A stretch of 64,000 nt of DNA. Origin: a phage. The stretch lies in the NCBI GenBank assembly GCA_024683775.1, contig GCA_024683775.1_4106.1; one strand, written 5' to 3'. Both the position numbers and the translations under genes were made by a program. Shown here piece by piece: positions 13 through 50,565 of this stretch; the first letter of the stretch is position 1, and every line of letters starts with the position of its first letter. Under the pieces are notes generated by a model, which saw nothing but the letters and a program-made list of their open reading frames with translations, was not told the origin of the DNA and made no database searches.

Positions 13-41
13 TTGACAGGTAGATTTTAATTATATATAAT
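13..41 (+). promoter_or_regulatory. sigma70-type promoter (TTGACA, 17-bp spacer, TATAAT)
   Basis: TTGACA at 13-18, 17-nt spacer, TATAAT at 36-41, about 38 nt upstream of the ATG at 79. Confidence 0.55.
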
Positions 42-4108: not shown

Positions 4109-4138
4109 TTGGAACAAAATCGTAAGTAGTGATACAAT
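4109..4138 (+). promoter_or_regulatory. promoter (TTGGAA, 18-bp spacer, TACAAT with TG extension)
   Basis: ttggaaCAAAatc box at -35 and tgaTACAAT; member of the GAGACAAAC-box promoter family. Confidence 0.45.
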
Positions 4139-4141
4139 GTA

Positions 4142-4177
4142 GTCATCTTACAGAGGTTGTGAGATGACATTTTTTTT
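4142..4177 (+). terminator. hairpin plus T-run (terminator or attenuator)
   Basis: GTCATCT / AGATGAC 7-bp stem at 4142-4148 and 4162-4168 followed by TTTTTTTT 4170-4177. Confidence 0.45.
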
Positions 4178-4201: not shown

Positions 4202-4507
4202 ATGGCAAAAGCTAAAAAAGAAGTTAAAGTTGAAATTCGTGACCTAAATGATGAACAACGTAAACGTCTAGGTGATGCACTAAACAACGCAGTAGTACAA
4301 CTTACTTTTATTGACGACACCAAAGCATCCTATGCAGATTTCATTAGTTCCATCTCTGATGAACTAGGTATTGATGCATCCGATATCAAACAAGCCGCTC
4401 AACGTATCTACAAAGGCGATTACTTTGATAAACAAAACAAACTCGATAATATCGAAACTATCCTAAGTGTTACTAACAATTTGCCACAAGCAGATGACGA
4501 TTACTAA
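4202..4507 (+). CDS. hypothetical protein
   Basis: 101-aa ORF with GGAG upstream. Confidence 0.45.
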   Translation: MAKAKKEVKVEIRDLNDEQRKRLGDALNNAVVQLTFIDDTKASYADFISSISDELGIDASDIKQAAQRIYKGDYFDKQNKLDNIETILSVTNNLPQADDDY

Positions 4508-4589: not shown

Positions 4590-7500
4590 ATGTATATCGA
4601 TGCTTATATGGAACGTAAACGTACTGGTGATATTTTGCACGTAGCAGAACGTAAAAACGGTAAACGTATTCTACGTCAGTTGGACCCAGTATATGAATAT
4701 TATGTTGAATCTCCTACTGGTGAACACAAAACAATTTATGGAACTAACGCAAAGCATTTGGAGTTTGAAACTCAATCACAGATGAATAAAAGCGTTGAGC
4801 AACATAAAAATGAAGGTCTACGTATTTTTGAAAGTGATTGCAACATTACCTTCAAAACGTTGGCTAGAGAATACATGGGTAAAGGTTCGCCGGATTTGAA
4901 CGTAGCATTTTTCGATATCGAAACAGACTTCCATAAGAAGTTTGGTTATGCTCCACCATCAGATCCATTCAACCGTGTAACTGCAATTTCTCTATATCAA
5001 TCATGGACTGGTAAGGATTATGTACTGACTTTGCCACCAACTGATATGGAAATGTACGAAGCACAAGATATTGTTCGTCAGTTAAACGAAGAAACTAACG
5101 ACCCTAACAGTACTGTCATCCTTTATACGGATGAGAAAGAAATGTTTATGGAGTTCTTTAGTCTAATCGATGACTCTGATGTAATTTCAGGTTGGAACAG
5201 TGAATTCTTTGATATTCCATATATGGTCAACCGTACCAAGAAAATCTTCAACGAAGCAACTACTGCTCGTTGGTGTTTGTGGAATAAAAAACCAAATGCT
5301 CGTGAAGCTGATAACTTTGGTAAAACTGTAGTAACATATGATCTTATTGGTCGTGTACACTTAGACTATCTTGCTCTTTATAAGAAACATGCTGGTCAAG
5401 TTGAACAGTCGTACAAACTAGATTATATTGCTGAAAAGGTAACTAAAGAAAACAAAGTATCCTATGAAGGTTCATTGGATAAACTATACCGTGAAGATTA
5501 TATTACATTCTTGCGTTATTCTAAGCAGGATAGTATTCTTCTAAAGAAAATTGATGCTAAATGTGACTTTATCAACCTGCACAACCGTCTTGCTCATAAA
5601 GAATGTGTACTAATTAGTACTACAATGGGTTCGGTTGCACTAATCGACACTGCTATCATCAACCTTGCTCACAGTCGCGGTGAAGTTGTTTTTAACAAAG
5701 CACCGAAAGATGATATTGAGATAGATCCAGAGATGGAGTACTATGGTGAAGAAGGTGATGAAGAAGATGAGAAAATCAGTGCAAAAGCTGCTGGTGCATG
5801 GGTTCAAGATCCAGTTCTTGGCCTTGTTAGCGATTTGGGATGTACAGACTTTAACTCATTGTATCCAACTGTACTACGTACACTTGGCATGAGTACTGAA
5901 TGTATTCTTGGACAACTTCGTCAAGACTACACTGATGCATATCTTGCTGCTAAAGTACAAGAGCAAAAAGCTAAATCCAAATCTAAAGCGTTTGAACCTG
6001 ATTGGACCGCTGCATGGCATGGTTTATTTGCTGCTGTAGAATTTACAATGGTTCATGAAAAATCTGACAAAACTTTGATTGTTGATTTAGAAGATGGTAG
6101 TTCGTTCAATGCAACTGGTAAAGAATTGTATGATATTATCTTTGCTGAAGACAGTACTATTGTACTAAGTGCTAACGGAACACTTTTTGATAAGTCTAAG
6201 TATGGTGTAATTCCAGATATTCTTACTCAATGGTATTCTGAGCGTAAAGCACAACAAAAAATGGTAATCGACTACAAACACATGTACAGTGATGGGTGGG
6301 AATTCAATGGTTCTGAGAAGGTTGAACCTTTGCTATCTAACTACACAAGTGGTACAATGTTCCGTACAAACTTACATGACAATGATCCTGTTTATCTATT
6401 ACGTATTGCTATTGGTAAAGGTCAATGGGAAGAAGTTGCAAAACTCATTGTGGAAAATGGTTTAGTACTGAAAGATGGTCGTATTTTCTGTGCAACGGAA
6501 GATAAGAATTACTTCAAACAGCAAAGTGCATTCTGGAAACAGAACCAGCAAATTCGTAAGATTCTTCTAAACAGTCTATATGGTGCACTATTGAACAAAG
6601 GTTCACGTTTCTTTGATAAGCGTTTAGGTCAGTCCGTTACCTTAACTGGTCGTTCTATGACTAAACATATGGCAAGCCGTATCAATGAAATCACTACTGG
6701 TGTTTATAATCACCAAGGTGGCTCTGTAATTTACGGTGATACTGACTCCGTTTACTTCAGTGTAACTCATTACCTGAAAGAACAAGGTATTCCATATAAT
6801 CTTTCTAAAGAAGAAATTGTTGACATGTATATCAAAATCGGTGATGAAGTTGGTGAATCATTCCCTTCATTCATGAACGAAATGTTCAATACTGGTATTG
6901 AGAAAGGTAAGATTGTTGGTGCAGACCTAGAGATGGTCGGTTCCCGTGGTCTATTCCTGAAGAAAAAGCGTTATGCAATTCTCAAGTACTGGGAAGATGG
7001 TTTCCGTAAAGATGTTGATGGAAAGCCTGGTGAAATTAAAGCGATGGGTCTTGAAATTAAACGTTCAGATACGCCAAAATACATCCAGAACTTCCTAGAA
7101 GAGACTCTAATTGCATTGCTGGTGGGTGAGTCTGAAGCTCAACTTAAACAGCGTGTACGTGACTTTAAAGAGGTATTTAAAGACATGCCTGTACACGAAA
7201 AGGGTTCACCGAAAACTGTTAAGAACTATACCAACTTAGAAGCAGAATATGAAGTTTCTGGTAAATGTAAAGTTGGTCACGTATTAGCAGGTATTCAATG
7301 GAACCGTCTACGTGAAGTATATGATGACAAAACTGTACCTGAAGTAACTGACGGTACAAAAGTAATTGTATGTAACTTAAAAGATAACCCGATGGGTATT
7401 AAAGCAGTAGGTTACCCAATTGACTGTGTGGAATATCTACCTGAATGGTTCTTAGAACTACCATTTGATACAGAGAAAATGGAAGAAATAGTTCTAACTA

Positions 7501-7595
7501 AAAAATTAGAAAACATTTTTGGTATTCTGGATATGGATATTGGTATTCATGAGAAAAGCACAGCAGCCGTTAATAACGGATTCTTCACCTGGTAA
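4590..7595 (+). CDS. DNA polymerase, family B (T4 gp43-like)
   Basis: 1001 aa; exonuclease motif FFDIETD, polymerase motifs KILLNSLYGAL and YGDTDSVYF. Confidence 0.9.
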   Translation: MYIDAYMERKRTGDILHVAERKNGKRILRQLDPVYEYYVESPTGEHKTIYGTNAKHLEFETQSQMNKSVEQHKNEGLRIFESDCNITFKTLAREYMGKGSPDLNVAFFDIETDFHKKFGYAPPSDPFNRVTAISLYQSWTGKDYVLTLPPTDMEMYEAQDIVRQLNEETNDPNSTVILYTDEKEMFMEFFSLIDDSDVISGWNSEFFDIPYMVNRTKKIFNEATTARWCLWNKKPNAREADNFGKTVVTYDLIGRVHLDYLALYKKHAGQVEQSYKLDYIAEKVTKENKVSYEGSLDKLYREDYITFLRYSKQDSILLKKIDAKCDFINLHNRLAHKECVLISTTMGSVALIDTAIINLAHSRGEVVFNKAPKDDIEIDPEMEYYGEEGDEEDEKISAKAAGAWVQDPVLGLVSDLGCTDFNSLYPTVLRTLGMSTECILGQLRQDYTDAYLAAKVQEQKAKSKSKAFEPDWTAAWHGLFAAVEFTMVHEKSDKTLIVDLEDGSSFNATGKELYDIIFAEDSTIVLSANGTLFDKSKYGVIPDILTQWYSERKAQQKMVIDYKHMYSDGWEFNGSEKVEPLLSNYTSGTMFRTNLHDNDPVYLLRIAIGKGQWEEVAKLIVENGLVLKDGRIFCATEDKNYFKQQSAFWKQNQQIRKILLNSLYGALLNKGSRFFDKRLGQSVTLTGRSMTKHMASRINEITTGVYNHQGGSVIYGDTDSVYFSVTHYLKEQGIPYNLSKEEIVDMYIKIGDEVGESFPSFMNEMFNTGIEKGKIVGADLEMVGSRGLFLKKKRYAILKYWEDGFRKDVDGKPGEIKAMGLEIKRSDTPKYIQNFLEETLIALLVGESEAQLKQRVRDFKEVFKDMPVHEKGSPKTVKNYTNLEAEYEVSGKCKVGHVLAGIQWNRLREVYDDKTVPEVTDGTKVIVCNLKDNPMGIKAVGYPIDCVEYLPEWFLELPFDTEKMEEIVLTKKLENIFGILDMDIGIHEKSTAAVNNGFFTW

Positions 7596-7605
7596 GGAAA
7601 ATATT

Positions 7606-7746
7606 ATGATTATTGCAGACGAAACTAAACTAAAATATGACGAAGTAAATGACGTATTCTCTGATGAATCACTGGCACTGTCTGAGGACAGTGTTAACGA
7701 GGCGTGGGAACAGTACGTTTTATGGAGTGCATCCCAAGGAGAGTAA
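7606..7746 (+). CDS. hypothetical small protein
   Basis: 46-aa ORF starting at ATG 7606 just after the polymerase stop; the track ORF from 7519 overlaps the polymerase. Confidence 0.3.
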   Translation: MIIADETKLKYDEVNDVFSDESLALSEDSVNEAWEQYVLWSASQGE

Positions 7747-7747
7747 T

Positions 7748-8050
7748 ATGGAAAATATCTATAAGCGTGTTGGTGCAGTACTGGAAGATAGTACTATCGT
7801 AAATTCAGTACTTGCATACAATAATGATGATGAAGTTGTTCTAATGTCTGCTGGTTTCACCAGAACTGGTTCTGTTGAAATTGACGGTGAGATTGTTGAC
7901 GTCTATTCTATTGAAAAGAAACGCAAAGTTGTCATTGTTGAAGATGTTAACACGTTAAAAGACTTAGAACATCTACGTTACAAATTCAACATTGGTGCAG
8001 GTGCAAACGCTGATAAGCCGTACCTTAAACGTTGGAACACAAAATACTGA
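7748..8050 (+). CDS. hypothetical protein
   Basis: 100-aa ORF from ATG 7748. Confidence 0.4.
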   Translation: MENIYKRVGAVLEDSTIVNSVLAYNNDDEVVLMSAGFTRTGSVEIDGEIVDVYSIEKKRKVVIVEDVNTLKDLEHLRYKFNIGAGANADKPYLKRWNTKY

Positions 8051-8057
8051 TAAAAAA

Positions 8058-8087
8058 TTGAGACAAGCATCATTCACGAGATATAAT
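8058..8087 (+). promoter_or_regulatory. promoter with GAGACAAAC-type -35 box
   Basis: ttGAGACAAgc at 8058-8068, 18-nt spacer, TATAAT at 8082-8087. Confidence 0.5.
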
Positions 8088-8154
8088 GGTGCTTGTAGTA
8101 ATCTGAAGCATACAAAAACATTTTTGATTAACAAATAAAACGGAGAATTATATA

Positions 8155-8886
8155 ATGGATCTACGCAACGTACTACGTGACCTAGTTAACACTACCAACG
8201 GCATCGACTTTTCTTGTATCGCAGTTAGCAGTGAAGACCGTGGTGATGGACAGCGTGTTTACATGGAAGCATACACCGATGACCGCACCCTAGTTATGCG
8301 TGCTCACACTAAAGAAGACGTACCAGAAGTTCAAGGTCGTTTTGGTCTTGGTAACCTAGGTCTTCTACAGGGTCTAATGTCTCTAAAAACTTATAGTACT
8401 GAAGGAACTACTATCACTTCTAATTTGAAAGATGGTGCAGTTAAGAGCCTAGCATTCAAAGCAGAAGATGCAAGCACTACTTTCATGGTTCAACCAGAAA
8501 AACTAATTCCAGCCCAGCCTCGTTTCCACGAACAACCATATGACGTACAGGTTACACCTAGTGCAGCTAAAGTTCAGGAACTAAAAAGCTTCTCTGGTGT
8601 GTTTAAATCTTTCAGTTCTCTAGTAACTCCATACACTGAAGGTGATACTCTTTACTTCCACGTTGGTGAGAAGAACAAAAGTAACCACGTTGGTGCACTA
8701 GCATTCTCTAAAACTGAAGGTGAACTAGGTCTTGGTTTTGGTTATAACATTGACCGTGTTCTACAAGCTCTATCCCGCGTTTCTAACGCAGAATCTGTTA
8801 CCCTTGGTATTACCAAAACTGGTATGCTAAACGTAACTCTAGACACTGGTATTGCGGTATACAAGATTTACGTAACAGGTTGCTAA
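8155..8886 (+). CDS. sliding clamp (T4 gp45-like)
   Basis: 243 aa; NVLRDLVNTTNGI and FGLGNLGLLQGLMSL align by eye with the T4 gp45 N-terminal region; highly biased codon usage; position near polymerase. Confidence 0.55.
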   Translation: MDLRNVLRDLVNTTNGIDFSCIAVSSEDRGDGQRVYMEAYTDDRTLVMRAHTKEDVPEVQGRFGLGNLGLLQGLMSLKTYSTEGTTITSNLKDGAVKSLAFKAEDASTTFMVQPEKLIPAQPRFHEQPYDVQVTPSAAKVQELKSFSGVFKSFSSLVTPYTEGDTLYFHVGEKNKSNHVGALAFSKTEGELGLGFGYNIDRVLQALSRVSNAESVTLGITKTGMLNVTLDTGIAVYKIYVTGC

Positions 8887-8896
8887 TATAAATAAT

Positions 8897-8924
8897 GGGG
8901 AACATGGAGTTCCCCAAATTTTTG
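8897..8924 (+). terminator. rho-independent terminator
   Basis: GGGGAAC-ATGGA-GTTCCCC hairpin then T-run. Confidence 0.6.
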
Positions 8925-8952
8925 ATTTAAAAATAAGTAAAGGAAGACAAAA

Positions 8953-9159
8953 ATGCCATTATATACATATCGTTGTGAAAAAGAAGAATGTAAACACAGT
9001 TTAGAAAAGATTGTAAAAATTGCCAATCGTGAAGAACCTCATGATTGTCCTCAATGTAATGGTGAAAAGACTATGAAGTTGGAAGTTTTTACCCCTGGTG
9101 ATAAAGGTGCTAATCTTTATTTCCGTGGTAAATGGTTTGCAAACACTGGAGGTTACTGA
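8953..9159 (+). CDS. FmdB-like zinc-ribbon protein
   Basis: MPLYTYRCEKEECKH...CPQCNG pattern typical of FmdB-family Zn ribbons. Confidence 0.5.
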   Translation: MPLYTYRCEKEECKHSLEKIVKIANREEPHDCPQCNGEKTMKLEVFTPGDKGANLYFRGKWFANTGGY

Positions 9160-9160
9160 T

Positions 9161-9463
9161 ATGAAAATTAAAATGATTAACGATTATGTACTGGTTCGTC
9201 AAATTGAAGCACAGAATAAAAGTACTGGTGGTATTATCCTAGGAAACGTGGAACCACCATGTGTTGGTATGGTGATTTCAGTTGGTGAAGGTAAAGTACT
9301 ACCTAATGGGCAAATTGCAGAACATAATATTTGTGTTGGTGATATGGTTGTATTCGGTCGCTCATCACTAAACACTCCTATCACTGAAGATCTTGGTGGT
9401 GGTGAAGACACATATTATGTGATGAAAATTGAAGAAATTTTTGGTAAGAAATCAAATGGCTAA
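9161..9463 (+). CDS. GroES-like co-chaperonin (gp31-like)
   Basis: DYVLVRQIEAQNKSTGGIILG ... VGDMVVFG matches the Cpn10 pattern; GGAGG 7 nt upstream of ATG 9161. Confidence 0.6.
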   Translation: MKIKMINDYVLVRQIEAQNKSTGGIILGNVEPPCVGMVISVGEGKVLPNGQIAEHNICVGDMVVFGRSSLNTPITEDLGGGEDTYYVMKIEEIFGKKSNG

Positions 9464-10181
9464 AAAAAGGTTTATTCCTTTCTGGATGGTCCCCGCTCAT
9501 TGGGGACTTTCTGGTAAAGCGAAAGAGATTGCGAAAGCATACTACTATAACGATGATTATGAAGCTGATATGTTAGTTGCAGAACTTACATATCTAACAC
9601 CATATGAAGTTGATGTAGCACAGTTGGATATCAAAAAGAAATACAATGTATTAGAAACTCTTGATTATCTAATAGCACAGGCAGATGTACAATTGAAGTA
9701 TTCCAAGATTACCCGTGATGAGTATAATGTAAAATTACTTGATGCTAAATTAAGTACTGGTGCAATTACTCAAAAAGAGTATGATATGGAAGTAATCGAA
9801 CTAATGCCTGATGGTGATGACAAACGTCTTAAAGCTATCGAGTTTGCATATCGTTATGAAGAGATTACACAACAAGAGTATTCAAAGGAAATCTTTACTT
9901 TACGTAAAGAACCTTGGATTGATTTGGATGTAGTACTTAATCCAGAAACAAATGAAGTTGAATTTGTTTTTGATTATAATGAATACTTTTGGAAAAAGTT
10001 AAAAGCGGAAGGTCATCCAGGTAATGACGAAGAAGAAATTATTGACAACTTCGTTAGAGACATGGGGCGTAAACTAGCTACGGATGATTTCAGTGATGAT
10101 TATGACGTAAAGCTAGTGAATGCGAACGAAGGGTTAGAGAATCTACCTGGTTTACCTGAAGGGTTCCGTTCATACAAATAA
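9456..10181 (+). CDS. hypothetical protein with ITxxEY repeats
   Basis: ORF overlapping the GroES-like stop by 8 nt; repeated ITRDEY / ITQKEY / ITQQEY motifs. Confidence 0.4.
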   Translation: MAKKRFIPFWMVPAHWGLSGKAKEIAKAYYYNDDYEADMLVAELTYLTPYEVDVAQLDIKKKYNVLETLDYLIAQADVQLKYSKITRDEYNVKLLDAKLSTGAITQKEYDMEVIELMPDGDDKRLKAIEFAYRYEEITQQEYSKEIFTLRKEPWIDLDVVLNPETNEVEFVFDYNEYFWKKLKAEGHPGNDEEEIIDNFVRDMGRKLATDDFSDDYDVKLVNANEGLENLPGLPEGFRSYK

Positions 10182-10214
10182 AAAAAGGAGAGCAAAAGCT
10201 CTCCTTTTCTTTTA
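10181..10214. terminator. bidirectional terminator between convergent genes
   Basis: A-run, GGAGAGC-AAAA-GCTCTCC hairpin, T-run. Confidence 0.6.
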
Positions 10215-10225
10215 TCTTTAATTTA

Positions 10226-10915
10226 TTAAACCATCGCTGGGATGAATTTGAATAGTTTGATACCGAAGTCACCAGCAGCATCAGCAGCTTGGGAACGTAG
10301 AACAACTTCAGTAACACCATCTTTAGCGAGTAGTGGAACTGCGGTTAGGTCATCAATTAGTAGACGGCCTTCTTCGATCTCAGTACTTGGAACGCCTTGG
10401 AAAGATTGAATATCTTTATCAAATACGTTAGCACGTTCAACGAGGAAAGTAACTACTGATGCACTAGCGATATCAACAGCACCAACACTTAGGATACCGT
10501 CAGCAGCGTTGGTAAAACCAGTAACTGCAAATGGTTCAGCGTCGTTGCCAGCGATTTCGGAAGTAGCGATGATAACTGCACGTTGTTGAACAACATCAAC
10601 GATACGTTTAACGTTAGTTTGTGCAGCGTAAGCAGCGTTATAATCAGCTTCTAGAGTTGCTGCTTCAAATGGAGTACCATCGATACGGATGATACCTTTT
10701 TCGTTTAGATATGCAACGATTTCATCAGCTACGTCAGTGTTTAGGAAACGTTGTAGACCAGCGAAAGAACCAACTGCACCAGTAACACGCACGTTAACAT
10801 TACCAATTTTACTAATTGCGATAGATGCTAGGGCGTTTTTGCCACAGAAGTAACCTAGAATTTTATCAAAGGAATAACCATTGATACGTTCAAAAGAAGT
10901 ATTAGTATTAGACAT
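10226..10915 (-). CDS. abundant late protein, paralog B (probable virion structural protein)
   Basis: 229 aa, Ala/Gly/Val/Thr-rich, strongly biased codons; paralogous to 10931-11530 (QQRAV(I/L)..TS and ER..VFDK motifs); GGGGGA RBS. Confidence 0.5.
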   Translation of the reverse strand: MSNTNTSFERINGYSFDKILGYFCGKNALASIAISKIGNVNVRVTGAVGSFAGLQRFLNTDVADEIVAYLNEKGIIRIDGTPFEAATLEADYNAAYAAQTNVKRIVDVVQQRAVIIATSEIAGNDAEPFAVTGFTNAADGILSVGAVDIASASVVTFLVERANVFDKDIQSFQGVPSTEIEEGRLLIDDLTAVPLLAKDGVTEVVLRSQAADAAGDFGIKLFKFIPAMV

Positions 10916-10930
10916 ATTGTAGTCCCCCTA

Positions 10931-11530
10931 TTATAGTTGTACTGGTAGAGCAGCACGAACTTTAATTGCAACAGCGTCAGCGGCAGCAGCATCACCAACA
11001 CCATCAGTACCTAGAGCAACATAAGATTTGGTACGGAAGAATTTAGCTTGTGCAATAGCTTTAGCTAGTTCAACAGTTGGATCAACTGGAACAGAGTAAG
11101 CAGCACCTGGGCGAACTTCTTGTTTGTCAAATACGTCTTGACGTTCACAGATGAAGGTTAGAGCAACAGAACCAGCACCACCTGTAACATCAGCACCACT
11201 AGTACCAAACGCGATTACGTTACCACCAACGGTTTTAAAGTCAGCAGGGATAACAACAGCGGTGTCTAGAGCTAGTACGGAAGTAGTAACTAGTACTGCA
11301 CGTTGTTGTAGTAGTTGGGTAATCATGAATTGGTTGTATTGAGCATTGCTGATTGCAGTTTGTAGTGCTTCATCTTGAATTTCGGAACCGTCAGAAGTAA
11401 CAGCGGTAGTACCAACTTCAACATCTGCTGGTAGATCAACAACGATGGTTACGAAACCATTGTTACCACCCCAGTATTCACGAGCAGTAGCAGACATACC
11501 ATAGTTACGGTTAAAAGAATTAAGACTCAT
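10931..11530 (-). CDS. abundant late protein, paralog A (probable virion structural protein)
   Basis: 199 aa; paralog of 10226-10915; GGAG RBS; late-type elements upstream. Confidence 0.5.
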   Translation of the reverse strand: MSLNSFNRNYGMSATAREYWGGNNGFVTIVVDLPADVEVGTTAVTSDGSEIQDEALQTAISNAQYNQFMITQLLQQRAVLVTTSVLALDTAVVIPADFKTVGGNVIAFGTSGADVTGGAGSVALTFICERQDVFDKQEVRPGAAYSVPVDPTVELAKAIAQAKFFRTKSYVALGTDGVGDAAAADAVAIKVRAALPVQL

Positions 11531-11572
11531 AAAAATCTCCTTGTCAAATTTTGTGCAGGAACACCCTGCTTA

Positions 11573-11647
11573 ATATTATTTATCAAAAAATATAAACCAC
11601 ATTTAAATTTAAGGCAATATTCCCTGATCTCTATGATATTATTTATC
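11573..11647 (-). promoter_or_regulatory. two copies of late-promoter-like GATAAATAATAT element
   Basis: Minus-strand GATAAATAATAT at 11584-11573 and 11647-11636, 40-115 nt upstream of the start at 11530. Confidence 0.4.
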
Positions 11648-11651
11648 AAAT

Positions 11652-16908
<5,257 letters not shown>

Positions 16909-16955: not shown

Positions 16956-16985
16956 TTGGGACGGTTAAAAATCCCATGATATAAT
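16956..16985 (+). promoter_or_regulatory. promoter (TTGGGA, 18-bp spacer, TATAAT with TG extension)
   Basis: ttggga at 16956-16961, catgaTATAAT with TATAAT at 16980-16985; second promoter upstream of the SSB gene. Confidence 0.45.
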
Positions 16986-26007: not shown

Positions 26008-26985
26008 ATGGCTCATCACGGCGTGTTTATGTACCCTTATAACCAAGAAGTATCATTGGGCAATTTTAATATGCCATATAGCAATGAGAAACTTACAATA
26101 TACAGAGGTGCAAATAACAATTTATCATTCACAGTGCATAACGCTGATGGAAAATATACATTACTAAAAGATAACGAATATCTAACATTCATGATTTTTG
26201 ATGCTAGAAACAATACTAAATTATTCGATGTAGTTTTGGATAAACAAAAACCATCATGGCTATCAGAAAGTGGACAAGCAAGACAAACATTAGGCAATAG
26301 TAAAAAAGTATATTATGGATGTATTGTTCCTGCTGGTGTAATTCAGGATACTAGTCCTGGTTCAAAATATAGATGGAGTATTACTAAAGTAACAATGGAT
26401 GGTTCCTTGATTGAACCTACACAGTACTTATACACTGGTCTTGATTATGAAGCCTCTGCTGAATTGATCATTTCCGACCAAGCTGCTCCTGTGTTTGTGC
26501 CAAGTATTGAAGTATCTGTTAATAAAAACCCAGCATGGACTACCATCAAACGCTTGTATCATGAACCAATCGCTCGTGGCGTTATTGGTGAATTTGATAT
26601 AATGGCAACATCTCCCCTTCCTGCACAAATGCAGTACGGATTAGTTGATGGTCTTAGTACTATTGCAATGTACTTTGATAAATTCATTGGTAGAATTCAA
26701 TTACAAGGATGTTTGTGTAATAACGTACCAACTGATAACGAAAACTATAAATGGTTTATTGTTAAATTGGATGGTAAAGAATATATCGAAAATGATATTG
26801 ATGAAAATGGATTCCCTAAAGCGTTAGATGGGATTCAAGCATTTAATTTTAAAGGTAATTACATGTGGTTGCGATTGGTTGTTTGTATTCATCCTAAGAT
26901 CGTTCCAGTTCCTTATGACTATGCGGCAGTAAGAAAAGTCTATGACCCACTACTGTCAGTTCCTAAAATTTTGATTCGCAGGTGA
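26008..26985 (+). CDS. hypothetical late protein (probable structural)
   Basis: 326-aa ORF from ATG 26008 with GGAAGG RBS; the track ORF from 25774 extends upstream without RBS. Confidence 0.45.
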   Translation: MAHHGVFMYPYNQEVSLGNFNMPYSNEKLTIYRGANNNLSFTVHNADGKYTLLKDNEYLTFMIFDARNNTKLFDVVLDKQKPSWLSESGQARQTLGNSKKVYYGCIVPAGVIQDTSPGSKYRWSITKVTMDGSLIEPTQYLYTGLDYEASAELIISDQAAPVFVPSIEVSVNKNPAWTTIKRLYHEPIARGVIGEFDIMATSPLPAQMQYGLVDGLSTIAMYFDKFIGRIQLQGCLCNNVPTDNENYKWFIVKLDGKEYIENDIDENGFPKALDGIQAFNFKGNYMWLRLVVCIHPKIVPVPYDYAAVRKVYDPLLSVPKILIRR

Positions 26986-27011
26986 GACAAAACAAGTGTT
27001 TGTGCTATAAT
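26982..27011 (+). promoter_or_regulatory. promoter with GAGACAAAC-type -35 box
   Basis: gtGAGACAAAac at 26982-26993, 18-nt spacer, tgcTATAAT with TATAAT at 27006-27011. Confidence 0.5.
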
Positions 27012-33404: not shown

Positions 33405-33434
33405 CTGAGACAAACAAAAATACGATGCTATAAT
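33405..33434 (+). promoter_or_regulatory. promoter with GAGACAAAC-type -35 box
   Basis: ctGAGACAAACaa at 33405-33417, 18-nt spacer, tgcTATAAT with TATAAT at 33429-33434. Confidence 0.5.
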
Positions 33435-33447
33435 TAGGAGTACACGG

Positions 33448-34167
33448 ATGTACACACCACCAATTGTTAGCAGATATACATACGTTGATTACAAAAGAAT
33501 TGAAGGCGGCCCCGAAGGTCGCCTTTATTCAACTCCAACAGGGAATCTGCCGTCAGTGACAACAATTCTTAGTGCCACCTCTGACAATGAGGGGTTGAAA
33601 AAATGGAGAGAATTTGTTGGTGAAGAGAAAGCTAATGAGATTACATTAGAAGCATGTACTGTTGGTACTTTTATGCACGAGAACTTAGAATATCGTCTGG
33701 ATGGAAAGCCAGACCACCAAGGTGGTATGCCGATACGAGTTCTGGCCCGTAGAATGGCTGACAAAATTCAAGAAGAAGCATGGCCTAGAATCAATGAAGT
33801 GTGGGGTCAGGAAGTTCCATTATTCTATGAAGGATTATGGGCTGGAACAACTGACTTAGTTGGAGTTCATGATGGTATTCCTTCTATCATGGACTATAAG
33901 AATTCCCGTAAATTAAAGACATGGGAACATATCGAAAATTACCGTATGCAAATCGCTGCATATGCACTATCGCATAATCAAATGTTTGGAACAAATATTG
34001 AGCGTGGTGTAATTTTCATCTGTGTAAGAAAAGATCCTAACAATTTACAATATCAAGAATTCGTTATTGAAGGACAAGACTTCAAGGATGCGGTTGATAT
34101 GTGGATTGGTAGAGTTGAACAATACTATATTTTACGTGGAGAAATTGAATCAAATGGAACAGCATAA
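33448..34167 (+). CDS. PD-(D/E)xK family nuclease (RecB/Cas4-like fold)
   Basis: Motifs H (FMHENLEY), D (TTDLVGV), D-x-K (MDYK) and QxxxY (QIAAY). Confidence 0.6.
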   Translation: MYTPPIVSRYTYVDYKRIEGGPEGRLYSTPTGNLPSVTTILSATSDNEGLKKWREFVGEEKANEITLEACTVGTFMHENLEYRLDGKPDHQGGMPIRVLARRMADKIQEEAWPRINEVWGQEVPLFYEGLWAGTTDLVGVHDGIPSIMDYKNSRKLKTWEHIENYRMQIAAYALSHNQMFGTNIERGVIFICVRKDPNNLQYQEFVIEGQDFKDAVDMWIGRVEQYYILRGEIESNGTA

Positions 34168-39881: not shown

Positions 39882-39911
39882 TTAGGACAAACACCAGAAC
39901 TGTGCTATAAT
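39882..39911 (+). promoter_or_regulatory. promoter with GGACAAAC box
   Basis: ttaGGACAAACac at 39882-39894, 18-nt spacer, tgcTATAAT with TATAAT at 39906-39911. Confidence 0.45.
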
Positions 39912-42851: not shown

Positions 42852-44160
<1,309 letters not shown>

Positions 44161-50507: not shown

Positions 50508-50537
50508 TCGGGGCATTTAATGTCCCGATATTTTTTT
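50508..50537 (+). terminator. rho-independent terminator
   Basis: TCGGGGCAT-TTA-ATGTCCCGA hairpin then TATTTTTTTT. Confidence 0.55.
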
Positions 50538-50565
50538 GAGACAAACAAAGCATTGATGATACAAT
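50536..50565 (+). promoter_or_regulatory. promoter with GAGACAAAC-type -35 box
   Basis: ttGAGACAAACaa at 50536-50548, 18-nt spacer, tgaTACAAT with TACAAT at 50560-50565. Confidence 0.5.

What the first reader, a model, noticed from the sequence alone, without database searches (positions are those of the whole stretch)
8058..8087. Promoter family with a conserved GAGACAAAC box at -35 upstream of replication genes
At least seven promoters share a box (T/C)TGAGACAAAC or a close variant 18 nt upstream of a TATAAT-like -10, usually with a TG extension. They are at 4109, 8058, 16879, 26982, 33405, 39882 and 50536, with a weaker relative at 11652. The conservation extends beyond what sigma70 needs. 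The downstream genes are the polymerase operon, clamp, SSB, primase-helicase, nuclease and topoisomerase. This looks like a phage-specific middle-promoter class read by a dedicated activator, analogous to MotA-box promoters in T4, but with a different box.
Basis: seen in the sequence. Interest (0 to 1): 0.55.

Follow-up and report, generated by a model that had tools for sequence, protein, structure and literature searches.

The report
Jumbo-phage replication-gene promoter class
Ten promoters in this jumbo E. coli phage window share a phage-specific box (TGRGACA) exactly 13 bases upstream of a perfect extended -10; relatives have the same class, and a sigma factor the phage itself encodes probably reads it rather than a T4 MotA-like activator.

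Summary
All eight listed sites exist, and I found two more at 16956 and 43815. The composite motif is on the + strand only and is far above chance: 9 vs 0.41 expected in the window, 18 vs 0.00 in the whole genome of a 99.7% identical phage. The conserved core is T-G-R-G-A-C-A, 13 nt, TGnTATAAT.

The window is an Asteriusvirus-like (RaK2-like) jumbo coliphage. The same class, with identical geometry, was published as the 'divergent RpoD-like promoter' (TGAAACG) of phages CBB and GAP32, also upstream of DNA-synthesis genes. I found it at orthologous positions in six lineages, each with its own box variant.

A separate early class (TTGACA-N16/17-TATAAT) fills the early regions. These regions hold a phage sigma70-family gene that is present in every clade member. 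The predicted -35-reading helix of that sigma is invariant within Asteriusvirus and changes in the lineages where the box changes. No MotA or AsiA homologue and no MotA box exist.

Best reading: host core RNA polymerase plus the phage sigma reads this class, which also drives the gp55-like late sigma gene. That gives a three-sigma cascade. This step is inferred, not shown. It is a new member of a known kind, of moderate interest.

The parts
4109..4138 (+). Box-class promoter TTGGAACA-N13-TGA-TACAAT, upstream of g355 (4202) and DNA polymerase (4590)
   Evidence: Orthologous site in ELP22, Munch, GAP32 and BF. Gene names.
8058..8087 (+). Box-class promoter TTGAGACA-N13-GAG-TATAAT, the only site without TG, upstream of the sliding clamp gene (8155). 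It is embedded in a hairpin at 8063-8096.
   Evidence: Orthologues in six lineages. Hairpin.
11652..11681 (+). Weaker member CTGGGAAA-N13-TGC-TATAAT, upstream of the RNase H-like 5'-3' exonuclease (11743)
   Evidence: Identical in ELP22; the orthologous position carries a good box in Munch, GAP32, BF and RaK2.
16879..16908 (+). Box-class promoter GCGAGACA-N13-TGA-TATAAT, the distal of two tandem promoters before gp32 SSB (17073)
16956..16985 (+).
   Evidence: The tandem pair is conserved in ELP22, GAP32, BF and XbC2.
26982..27011 (+). Box-class promoter GTGAGACA-N13-TGC-TATAAT, upstream of primase (27041) and helicase (28123)
33405..33434 (+). Box-class promoter CTGAGACA-N13-TGC-TATAAT, upstream of the RecB-like exonuclease (33448). 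The -10 ends only 13 nt before the ATG.
39882..39911 (+). Box-class promoter TTAGGACA-N13-TGC-TATAAT, upstream of g401 (39941), g402 and the NTP pyrophosphohydrolase
43815..43844 (+). Additional site CCAGGACA-N13-TGA-TATAAT inside the RNase H gene, 341 nt upstream of the dda helicase (44186). Conserved only within Asteriusvirus.
50536..50565 (+). Box-class promoter TTGAGACA-N13-TGA-TACAAT, directly after a terminator-like hairpin and T-run, upstream of the topoisomerase II large (50601) and medium subunits

Best explanation
These are genuine promoters of one phage-specific class that the whole RaK2-like jumbo-phage clade shares. Each has an A/T-rich tract, a box T-G-R-G-A-C-A (often followed by A-A-c) at the -35 position, exactly 13 nt of free sequence, and a near-perfect extended -10, (g)TGnTATAAT. 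The class heads the replication, recombination and nucleotide-metabolism operons and the gene for the gp55-like late sigma factor.

It is the Asteriusvirus version of the 'divergent RpoD-like promoter' (TGAAACG-N13-TGnTATAAT) published for phages CBB and GAP32.

Proposed mechanism (inferred, not shown):
1. Host sigma70 holoenzyme first reads the canonical early promoters (TTGACA-N16/17-TATAAT).
2. One early product is a phage sigma70-family factor (g519 in fEgEco12, encoded about 37 kb beyond the window's right end).
3. This factor binds host core RNA polymerase. Its altered region 4.2 helix reads TGRGACA in place of TTGACA, while region 2/3 reads the extended -10.
4. That turns on replication genes and the late sigma, giving a three-sigma cascade.

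Sub-probabilities:
- Real promoter class homologous to the CBB/GAP32 class: about 0.9.
- Read by the phage sigma: about 0.45.
- 'Middle' timing: about 0.6.
For: Enrichment and strand bias:
- 9 vs 0.41 expected in the window.
- 18 vs 0.00 expected in the genome, none on the minus strand.
- Nearly all of the 23 genome sites are intergenic and precede + strand genes.

Geometry is identical to CBB 'Promoter 1', where 11 of the 18 sites lie upstream of CBB_258-329, a region with many DNA-synthesis genes.

Orthology: the same promoters sit before the same genes in ELP22, RaK2, Munch, GAP32, BF and XbC2, each with a lineage-specific box.

Footprint, window vs ELP22, 10 promoter pairs, as fraction identical:
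- box 0.89
- TGn plus hexamer 0.99
- spacer 0.66
- upstream 0.57

A separate early family (29 exact TTGACA-N16/17-TATAAT vs 0.36 expected) clusters at 0-21 kb and 266-327 kb. It never overlaps the box class.

The sigma gene lies in that early region, behind canonical promoters at 303118, 304484 and 304805.

The sigma has Pfam Sigma70_r2 and r3. It aligns to SigA, RpoS and RpoD through region 4. The AlphaFold model is confident for region 4 (pLDDT 80-89), and Foldseek returns only sigma factors.

The sigma is present in every clade member.

Mapped on E. coli sigma70 residues R584, E585, R586, I587, R588, Q589, the phage helix reads:
- RSSLHR in fEgEco12, RSSIHR in ELP22 and RTSLHR in Munch; box TGRGAC
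- KATLSR in GAP32, CBB, BF and XbC2; box TGAAAC

The helix RSSxHRKY is invariant in 11 sigmas that are otherwise down to 48% identical.

Munch sigma is overall nearer the GAP32 group (45%) than Asteriusvirus (36%), yet it shares both the R/H helix and the G-box.

The late sigma gene (PHROG late sigma, E 9e-153) is preceded by a box promoter in fEgEco12, XbC2 and CBB.
Against: - No transcription data exist for any member, so neither start sites nor timing are shown.
- The -10 is the textbook sigma70 extended -10, which sigma70 holoenzyme can use without any -35. Meanwhile the phage sigma has lost several sigma70 residues tied to -12 and TG recognition and to melting: W433/W434 to T/T, Q437 to M, H455 to Y, E458 to V. 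That fits host sigma70 reading at least as well as phage sigma reading.
- The covariation of helix and box amounts to about one evolutionary event. RaK2 (helix RGTLHY, box TTGAACA, register 13-14) does not fit a simple code.
- The region 4.2 alignment contains an 8-10 residue insertion in the helix-turn-helix turn, so the residue mapping is approximate.
- The sigma gene is not in the window. Its presence in this phage is inferred from relatives 99% or more identical.
Confidence: 0.5

Rival explanations
1. Host sigma70 holoenzyme reads these promoters through the extended -10. The TGRGACA box is the binding site of an unidentified phage activator or sigma appropriator. This would be functionally MotA/AsiA-like but unrelated in sequence.
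For: - The -10 is a perfect sigma70 extended -10.
- The box sits where the T4 MotA box replaces the -35.
- Box conservation exceeds what sigma70 needs.
- Many small early proteins have no assigned function.
- g355 (4202-4507) has a weak PHROG 'transcriptional regulator' hit (E 1.6e-7).
Against: - No MotA or AsiA homologue is found (tblastn and phmmer best E 0.4-1.3), and no MotA-box pattern.
- No candidate activator has been identified.
- g355 is itself behind a box promoter, so it cannot start the class.
- This reading leaves the clade-wide phage sigma without a promoter class, and it treats the helix/box covariation as coincidence.
Confidence: 0.22
2. They are ordinary strong sigma70 promoters with no dedicated factor. 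The extended -10 carries recognition. GACA, with a 16-nt spacer, is a partial -35. The extra conservation (the T and the G/A-G) reflects descent from a common ancestral promoter or a DNA-shape preference. The genes would then be early or constitutive.
For: - GACA lies in the same register as the GACA of canonical GTTGACA-N13-TGnTATAAT promoters in the same genome (positions 138618, 138710, 168030).
- The RaK2 version (TTGAAC-N17/18) is close to a sigma70 -35.
- An upstream A-tract resembles a proximal UP element for host alpha-CTD.
- The related phage PA5oct is reported to rely on host RNA polymerase and to have TTGAC/TATAATA promoters (PMC7318152).
Against: - In 22 sites the two most important sigma70 -35 bases (TT of TTG) are never present. 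They are replaced by a conserved G-R with a conserved T one base upstream. Meanwhile 29 perfect TTGACA promoters exist elsewhere in the genome, so the phage can and does keep consensus -35s where it wants them.
- The box is maintained at 0.89 identity while spacers drift to 0.66.
- The box changes in concert across all promoters of a lineage. That implies a shared reader that changed, not host sigma70, whose region 4.2 is conserved among these hosts (established knowledge).
- The bare heptamer is depleted genome-wide.
Confidence: 0.2
3. The shared sequence is not a promoter class. It would be a repeated element of another kind, for example a replication or packaging signal, or a chance resemblance.
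For: A subset of sites overlap hairpins (7 of 23 with z < -1.5). One site (43815) lies inside a gene.
Against: - Strict + strand bias matching gene orientation.
- Intergenic position 13-170 nt before start codons.
- Perfect two-block promoter architecture with fixed spacing.
- Conservation at orthologous positions in six lineages.
- Hairpins are not a general property (mean z -0.7).
Confidence: 0.03

Closest known systems
'Divergent RpoD-like promoter' (Promoter 1) of Pectobacterium phage CBB, also reported for Cronobacter phage GAP32 (Buttimer et al. 2017, PMC5259590; Abbasifar et al. 2014, not readable here)
   Same: - Identical architecture: a 7-nt box, 13 nt, TGnTATAAT.
- Same gene targets (DNA-synthesis genes and the gp55-like sigma gene).
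- Same syntenic positions.
- Same clade of RaK2-like jumbo phages.
   Different: The box is TGRGACA(aa) here and TG(A/G)AA(C/T)(G/A) there. No paper I could read describes the class in Asteriusvirus. None assigns a reader to it or notes the link to the sigma region 4.2 helix.
Phage-encoded sigma cascades: Bacillus phage SPO1 gp28 and gp33/34, and coliphage phiEco32 gp36 (PMC8948821; PMC13401047)
   Same: Host sigma reads the early promoters. A phage sigma70-family protein made early redirects host core polymerase to a phage-specific promoter class for later genes.
   Different: In those systems the sigma-promoter assignment is experimental; here it is inferred. From my own knowledge, SPO1 middle promoters differ from the host consensus in both elements. 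Here only the -35 differs, and the -10 is the host-type extended -10. The third tier here is a T4 gp55-type sigma.
T4 middle promoters (MotA box plus AsiA-remodelled sigma70)
   Same: A sigma70-type -10, often with TGn. A phage-specific box replaces the -35. Replication genes are the targets. (Established T4 knowledge.)
   Different: The T4 box is (a/t)(a/t)(a/t)TGCTTtA centred at -30. That pattern is absent here. MotA and AsiA homologues are absent. This phage encodes a full-length sigma70-family factor instead.
Extended -10 (TGn) promoters of E. coli, and phage switches that favour them (Thermus phage P23-45 gp39; Tagami et al. 2014, cited in PMC7318152)
   Same: TGnTATAAT is present in 9 of 10 window sites. 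Such promoters stay active when -35 recognition is disabled.
   Different: A strongly conserved element at the -35 position is kept here. Pure extended -10 promoters do not need one.

Membership tests
CBB/GAP32 'divergent RpoD-like' jumbo-phage promoter class | A 7-nt box beginning TG and containing A-C/T near its 3' end, placed exactly 13 nt upstream of TGnTATAAT | tested here: met
   TGAGACA-N13-TGC-TATAAT here, against TGAAACG-N13-TGC-TATAAT in CBB Table S6.
CBB/GAP32 'divergent RpoD-like' jumbo-phage promoter class | Consensus box sequence TGAAACG | tested here: not met
   The box here is TG(A/G)(G/A)ACA. Position 4 is G in 19/22 sites and position 7 is A in 21/22. This is a lineage variant.
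CBB/GAP32 'divergent RpoD-like' jumbo-phage promoter class | Located upstream of DNA-synthesis genes and of the gp55-like sigma gene, at syntenic positions | tested here: met
   Orthologous sites lie before g355/pol, clamp, rnh, gp32 (two), primase, recB-like exonuclease and g401 in six genomes. The late sigma gene is covered.
Canonical sigma70 promoter | -35 hexamer TTGACA, with TTG the most important bases | tested here: not met
   Only GACA is kept (16-nt spacer register). TT is replaced by G-R in all 22 genome sites. Canonical TTGACA promoters form a separate family.
Canonical sigma70 promoter | -10 hexamer TATAAT, 16-18 nt from the -35 | tested here: met
   TATAAT or TACAAT is present at all sites. 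The spacing is 16 nt from GRGACA and 18 nt from TTGAGA.
Extended -10 promoter | TG at -15/-14, one base upstream of the -10 hexamer | tested here: met
   Present in 9 of 10 window sites (not 8058). The base upstream of the TG is a purine in 21/22 genome sites (G 16, A 5; the 22-site set was selected on TG, so TG frequency itself is not informative there).
T4 MotA-dependent middle promoter | MotA box (a/t)(a/t)(a/t)TGCTTtA centred near -30, 11-13 nt from the -10 | tested here: not met
   The pattern occurs 0 times in the window on either strand, and 0 (+) / 2 (-) times in the 354-kb genome.
T4 MotA-dependent middle promoter | MotA activator and AsiA co-activator encoded by the phage | tested here: not met
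   tblastn and phmmer of T4 MotA and AsiA against the complete fEgEco12 genome give best E of 0.4-1.3. This is sequence level only; a structural analogue cannot be excluded.
T4 MotA-dependent middle promoter | Activation about 1-2 min after infection, dependent on phage protein synthesis | not testable with these tools
   No transcriptome or 5'-end data were found for any clade member with this class.
Phage-sigma-dependent promoter class (SPO1 gp28 / phiEco32 gp36 type) | Phage encodes a sigma70-family protein with DNA-reading regions 2 and 4 | tested here: met
   g519 of fEgEco12 has Pfam r2 and r3 and PDB alignments through r4. The region 4 model is confident. It is present in all relatives 99% or more identical to the window and in all clade genera. 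The gene lies outside the window.
Phage-sigma-dependent promoter class (SPO1 gp28 / phiEco32 gp36 type) | Sigma gene expressed from host-type early promoters | tested here: inconclusive
   By sequence, canonical TTGAC(T/G)-N17/18-TA(T/C)AAT promoters lie 1.2-3 kb upstream in the same gene string and no box promoter intervenes. Expression was not measured.
Phage-sigma-dependent promoter class (SPO1 gp28 / phiEco32 gp36 type) | The phage sigma holoenzyme, not the host sigma70 holoenzyme, initiates at the class | not testable with these tools
   Only indirect evidence is available: the region 4.2 helix is invariant where the box is invariant and differs where the box differs.

The most novel reading that the evidence does not exclude
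A sigma70-family factor encoded by RaK2-like jumbo phages carries a beta-hairpin insertion inside the region 4 helix-turn-helix and has co-evolved with its own -35 box: TGRGACA with an R..H helix, TGAAACG with a K..S helix. This makes the middle tier of a three-sigma cascade (host sigma70, then the phage sigma70-like factor, then the gp55-like sigma) in an E. coli phage. It would also be a natural set of orthogonal sigma/promoter pairs that share one -10.
Probability: 0.4. Interest if true: 0.55.

Novelty: new member of a known kind. Interest (0 to 1): 0.4.

Why it matters
RaK2-like jumbo phages (Asteriusvirus, Alcyoneusvirus, Mimasvirus, Eneladusvirus) are common therapy candidates, but their gene-expression programme is almost unstudied. 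No promoter analysis appears in the Asteriusvirus papers I could read.

Recognising that their replication genes and their late sigma gene hang on one conserved promoter class gives a concrete map of the regulatory cascade. A clade-wide phage sigma is the likely reader.

It also yields a simple in vitro test: core polymerase plus phage sigma, on wild-type versus swapped boxes. If the sigma/box pairing holds, the lineage variants are ready-made specificity-swap experiments for how region 4.2 reads DNA.

Tried and rejected
- **Bare 9-mer search.** GAGACAAAC is not enriched, so the finding rests on the composite motif.
- **Hairpins as a class feature.** I tested whether an inverted repeat over the -10, seen at the clamp and gp32 promoters, might be general and might explain the AAC tail. 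It is not general: mean z is -0.7 and only 7 of 23 sites are below -1.5.
- **MotA/AsiA search.** Nothing found. The MotA-box pattern is also absent.
- **Structure of the sigma.** After a homologue search, the model was confident only for region 4 (mean pLDDT 51). No residue-level DNA contacts are claimed from it.
- **g355 as candidate regulator.** There was no Pfam hit and no informative PDB hit. Only a weak PHROG hit exists.
- **Papers not available.** The GAP32 paper is not held. The PA5oct promoter table is not held. So PA5oct, which gave no tblastn match to this sigma at E 1e-5, could not be checked site by site as a natural control.
- **XaC1 as an extra lineage.** It gave only one candidate site, which is uninformative.
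- **T4-type late motif.** TATAAATA occurs only three times in the window. The late class was not defined further.
- **Rfam.** No family was found in the window or downstream of the orphan promoter.

Full report
**What the window is.** Window 7000-12000 is 99.7% identical to several jumbo coliphages (WPEC3, BF17, fEgEco12, 350-385 kb). It is about 83% identical to the PBECO4/121Q group (Asteriusvirus) and more distantly related to RaK2, GAP32, CBB and Erwinia/Serratia/Yersinia phages. I fetched the complete annotated genome of fEgEco12 (374,733 bp). Its segment 204815-268814 is collinear with the window, so gene names below come from that record.

**Checking the observation.** All eight listed sites are present. 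Aligned on the -10 they read (T/C/G)(T/C)G(A/G)(G/A)ACA, 13 nt, TGn, TA(T/C)AAT. Site 8058 has GAG instead of TGn.

- Two further sites exist. One is at 16956-16985, a second tandem promoter before gp32. The other is at 43815-43844, inside the RNase H gene upstream of dda.
- The composite pattern GACA-N16-TAYAAT occurs 9 times on the + strand and never on the - strand, against 0.41 expected.
- In the whole fEgEco12 genome, YGRRACA-N13-TGNTAYAAT occurs 18 times on +, 0 on -, against 0.00 expected. A slightly looser pattern gives 22-23 sites, all on +.
- The bare 9-mer is not enriched (9 vs 19.4), and TGRGACA alone is depleted (38 vs 59.8).
- Over 22 sites the informative positions are T(17/22) G G/A G A C A, then (G/A) TG (A/C, never G/T) TATAAT.
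- The 10 nt upstream are A/T-rich (77% vs 64% genome average).

**It is a known class in relatives.** The paper on Pectobacterium phage CBB describes a second, 'divergent RpoD-like' promoter. It has a classic -10 but a -35 consensus TGAAACG. There are 18 copies, 11 of them upstream of CBB_258-329, a region with many DNA-synthesis genes, and one before the gp55-like sigma gene. [quoted passage not shown] Its Table S6 lists sequences such as TGAAACGTAAGGAATTTTTCTGCTATAAT. That is a 7-nt box, 13 nt, TGn, TATAAT, exactly the geometry found here. The fEgEco12 and phAPEC6 papers contain no promoter analysis.

**Conservation at orthologous positions.** I fetched the syntenic replication modules of ELP22 (PBECO4-type), RaK2, Munch, GAP32, Serratia phage BF and XbC2. 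The promoter is present before the same genes in each: the small ORF before pol, clamp, rnh, gp32 (two in tandem), primase, recB-like exonuclease and g401. Each lineage has its own box:

| Lineage | Box |
|---|---|
| Window and ELP22 | TG(A/G)(G/A)ACA |
| Munch | TGGGAC(A/G) or TGGGATG |
| GAP32, BF, CBB, XbC2 | TG(A/G)AA(C/T)(G/A) |
| RaK2 | (T/C)TGAAC(A/G), spacing 13-14 |

Between the window and ELP22, over ten promoter pairs, the fraction identical varies by block:

| Block | Identity |
|---|---|
| Upstream | 0.57 |
| Box | 0.89 |
| AAC tail | 0.83 |
| Spacer | 0.66 |
| TGn plus hexamer | 0.99 |
| Downstream | 0.76 |

This is a classic two-block footprint.

**A second, separate promoter family.** Exact TTGACA-N16/17-TATAAT occurs 29 times on + in fEgEco12, against 0.36 expected.

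- The loose scan shows a homogeneous family: aaaaagta-TTGACA-...(AGTACTG)-TATAAT.
- It is packed into the terminal repeat (0-21 kb) and into 266-327 kb. These regions hold many short ORFs of unknown function. CBB's authors interpret the corresponding region as early.
- The box class lies instead at 60-142 kb and 191-256 kb, with three outliers at 290873, 307103 and 318301.
- In the box class the GACA sits in the register of a 16-nt-spacer -35. The TT of TTGACA is always replaced by G-R, with a conserved T one base upstream.
- The genome therefore keeps perfect sigma70 -35 elements where it wants them and keeps something else here.

**Who could read the box.**

- T4 MotA and AsiA have no detectable homologue in the complete fEgEco12 genome (best E 0.4-1.3). 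The MotA-box pattern is absent.
- The genome does encode two sigma-like proteins.
  - g336 is next to the gp46/47-like genes. It matches the PHROG 'sigma factor for late transcription' (E 9e-153) and the late sigma transcription factor family phrog_234 (E 1e-16).
  - g519 (306080-307048) has Pfam Sigma70_r2 and r3. It aligns with SigA, SigB, RpoS and RpoD from region 2 to region 4.
- The g519 gene lies in the early region, behind canonical promoters at 303118, 304484 and 304805.
- It is present in all close relatives of the window. That includes Ecwhy_1, where the fEgEco12 paper reported it absent. It is also present in every genus of the clade: PBECO4/121Q 59%, RaK2 39%, GAP32 38%, CBB 37%, Munch 36%, BF/Erwinia/Yersinia 33%, Xanthomonas phages 31-34%.
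- The AlphaFold model is poor overall (pLDDT 51) but confident for residues 250-315 (80-89). It shows the region 4 helices with a beta-hairpin-like insertion in the helix-turn-helix turn and a long recognition helix. Foldseek returns only sigma factors.

**Helix and box compared.** The table aligns the phage sigmas to E. coli sigma70 at positions R584-E585-R586-I587-R588-Q589. From established sigma70 work, recalled rather than tested here, these include the residues that contact the -35 hexamer.

| Lineage | Helix | Box |
|---|---|---|
| fEgEco12 | R-S-S-L-H-R | TGRGAC |
| ELP22 | R-S-S-I-H-R | TGRGAC |
| Munch | R-T-S-L-H-R | TGRGAC |
| RaK2 | R-G-T-L-H-Y | TTGAACA |
| GAP32, CBB, BF, XbC2 | K-A-T-L-S-R | TGAAAC |

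- The R..H sigmas go with G at box position 4. The K..S sigmas go with A at position 4 and G at position 7.
- Within Asteriusvirus-type sigmas that have diverged to 48% identity, RSSxHRKY is invariant, as is the box.
- Munch's sigma is overall closer to the GAP32 group (45-46%) than to Asteriusvirus (36-38%), yet it shares the R..H helix and the G-box.
- This is suggestive covariation, but it amounts to roughly one evolutionary change, and RaK2 does not fit a simple code.

**Cascade logic.** The gp55-like late sigma gene is preceded by a box-class promoter in three lineages:

- fEgEco12 at 190986-191015. This lies inside the annotated 5' end of g336, so that annotated start is probably wrong.
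- XbC2.
- CBB, as Porf_244.

With three promoter families and three sigmas, the economical assignment is host sigma70 to early, phage sigma70-like to the box class, and gp55-like to late.

**What speaks against this.**

- The -10 of the class is the textbook sigma70 extended -10, which sigma70 can use without a -35.
- The phage sigma has changed several residues that in sigma70 are tied to -12 and TG recognition and to melting: W433/W434 to T/T, Q437 to M, H455 to Y, E458 to V.
- No transcription data exist for the clade. The only related transcriptome, from PA5oct, reports TTGAC/TATAATA promoters and dependence on host polymerase. No Pseudomonas phage matched the g519 sigma by tblastn at E 1e-5.
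- I therefore put the phage-sigma reading at about 0.45, sigma70 plus an unknown activator at about 0.22, and sigma70 alone at about 0.2.

**Verdict.** The finding is a real, strongly non-random, clade-conserved promoter class. The MotA analogy does not hold at the level of components. The class is already in the literature for sister genera, so this is a new member of a known kind. The added value here is threefold: the orthology map, the clean separation from the early class, and a testable sigma/box pairing.

Noticed in passing
window 8063-8096 (and orthologous sites L018, L016, L023, L017, L019): The clamp promoter is embedded in a hairpin or inverted repeat whose loop holds the -10. The stem sequence differs in every lineage but the pairing is kept: window ACAAGCA/TGCTTGT, RaK2 ACACAAGC/GCTTGTGT, Munch GACGTACC/GGTACGTC, GAP32 CGGGTAC/GTACCCG, BF ACGTATACG/CGTATACGT. 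Folding z-scores run from -2.5 to -6. It may be an RNA structure in read-through transcripts from the pol operon, or a DNA cruciform or operator. It is not a general property of the class.
   Followed up: partly
fEgEco12 genome, e.g. L005:10055-10088, 12781, 14072, 17192; L003:4629 (genome 309443): The early promoter family is unusually uniform. It reads aaaaagta-TTGACA-N9-AGTACTG-TATAAT-(a/g)tttacatc, so a conserved AGTACT (ScaI-like palindrome) abuts the -10. A second sub-family has gggTTGACTtcggtca(g/a)ccc, a hairpin that includes the -35.
   Followed up: no
window 13-41: A perfect 12/12 sigma70 consensus (TTGACA-N17-TATAAT) sits 38 nt upstream of the major capsid protein gene (79-1188). 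This is unexpected for a presumed late gene.
   Followed up: no
window 33429-33450: At the recB-like exonuclease promoter the -10 ends only 13 nt before the ATG, and the GGAG Shine-Dalgarno lies 3-6 nt after the -10. The spacing is identical in five lineages. Transcripts from this promoter would be nearly leaderless and would lack the SD.
   Followed up: no
window 4142-4168: A terminator-like hairpin plus T-run (GTCATCTTACAGAGGTTGTGAGATGAC-TTTTTTTT) lies immediately downstream of the -10 of P4109, before g355 and the polymerase gene. It may be an attenuator or leader structure.
   Followed up: no
window 4202-4507: g355 is the first gene of the polymerase operon and is conserved before pol in all lineages. 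It has a weak PHROG 'transcriptional regulator' hit (phrog_639, E 1.6e-7) but no Pfam or PDB match. It has an acidic C-terminus (…PQADDDY).
   Followed up: partly
L003:2268-2900 (fEgEco12 307082-307710) and L008:45693-45980 (195693-195980): Two good box-class promoters have no annotated + strand gene downstream. The first is followed by about 600 nt with no ORF of 50 aa or more, no tRNA and no Rfam hit. The second runs antisense to g340-g343. They could drive unannotated non-coding or antisense RNAs.
   Followed up: partly
fEgEco12 genome-wide: The heptamer TGRGACA is under-represented outside promoters: 38 vs 59.8 expected on +, 20 vs 41.3 on -. Of the 38 on +, 11 are in box promoters. This is consistent with selection against spurious sites.
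   Followed up: partly
Ecwhy_1 MH791411.1:1665-2630; L008:40974-41912: There are two annotation problems in public records. The fEgEco12 paper lists sigma Gp519 as absent from Ecwhy_1, but a 100% identical ORF is there. The annotated start of the late sigma g336 lies upstream of its own promoter; the likely start is the Met 33 codons downstream (MTNRPKRKK).
   Followed up: yes
window 13260-15562: The large terminase is annotated as three overlapping ORFs in fEgEco12 (g367-g369) and two in GAP32, BF and ELP22, but as one 2.7-kb gene in RaK2. This could be a frameshift, a split gene or an inserted element.
   Followed up: no
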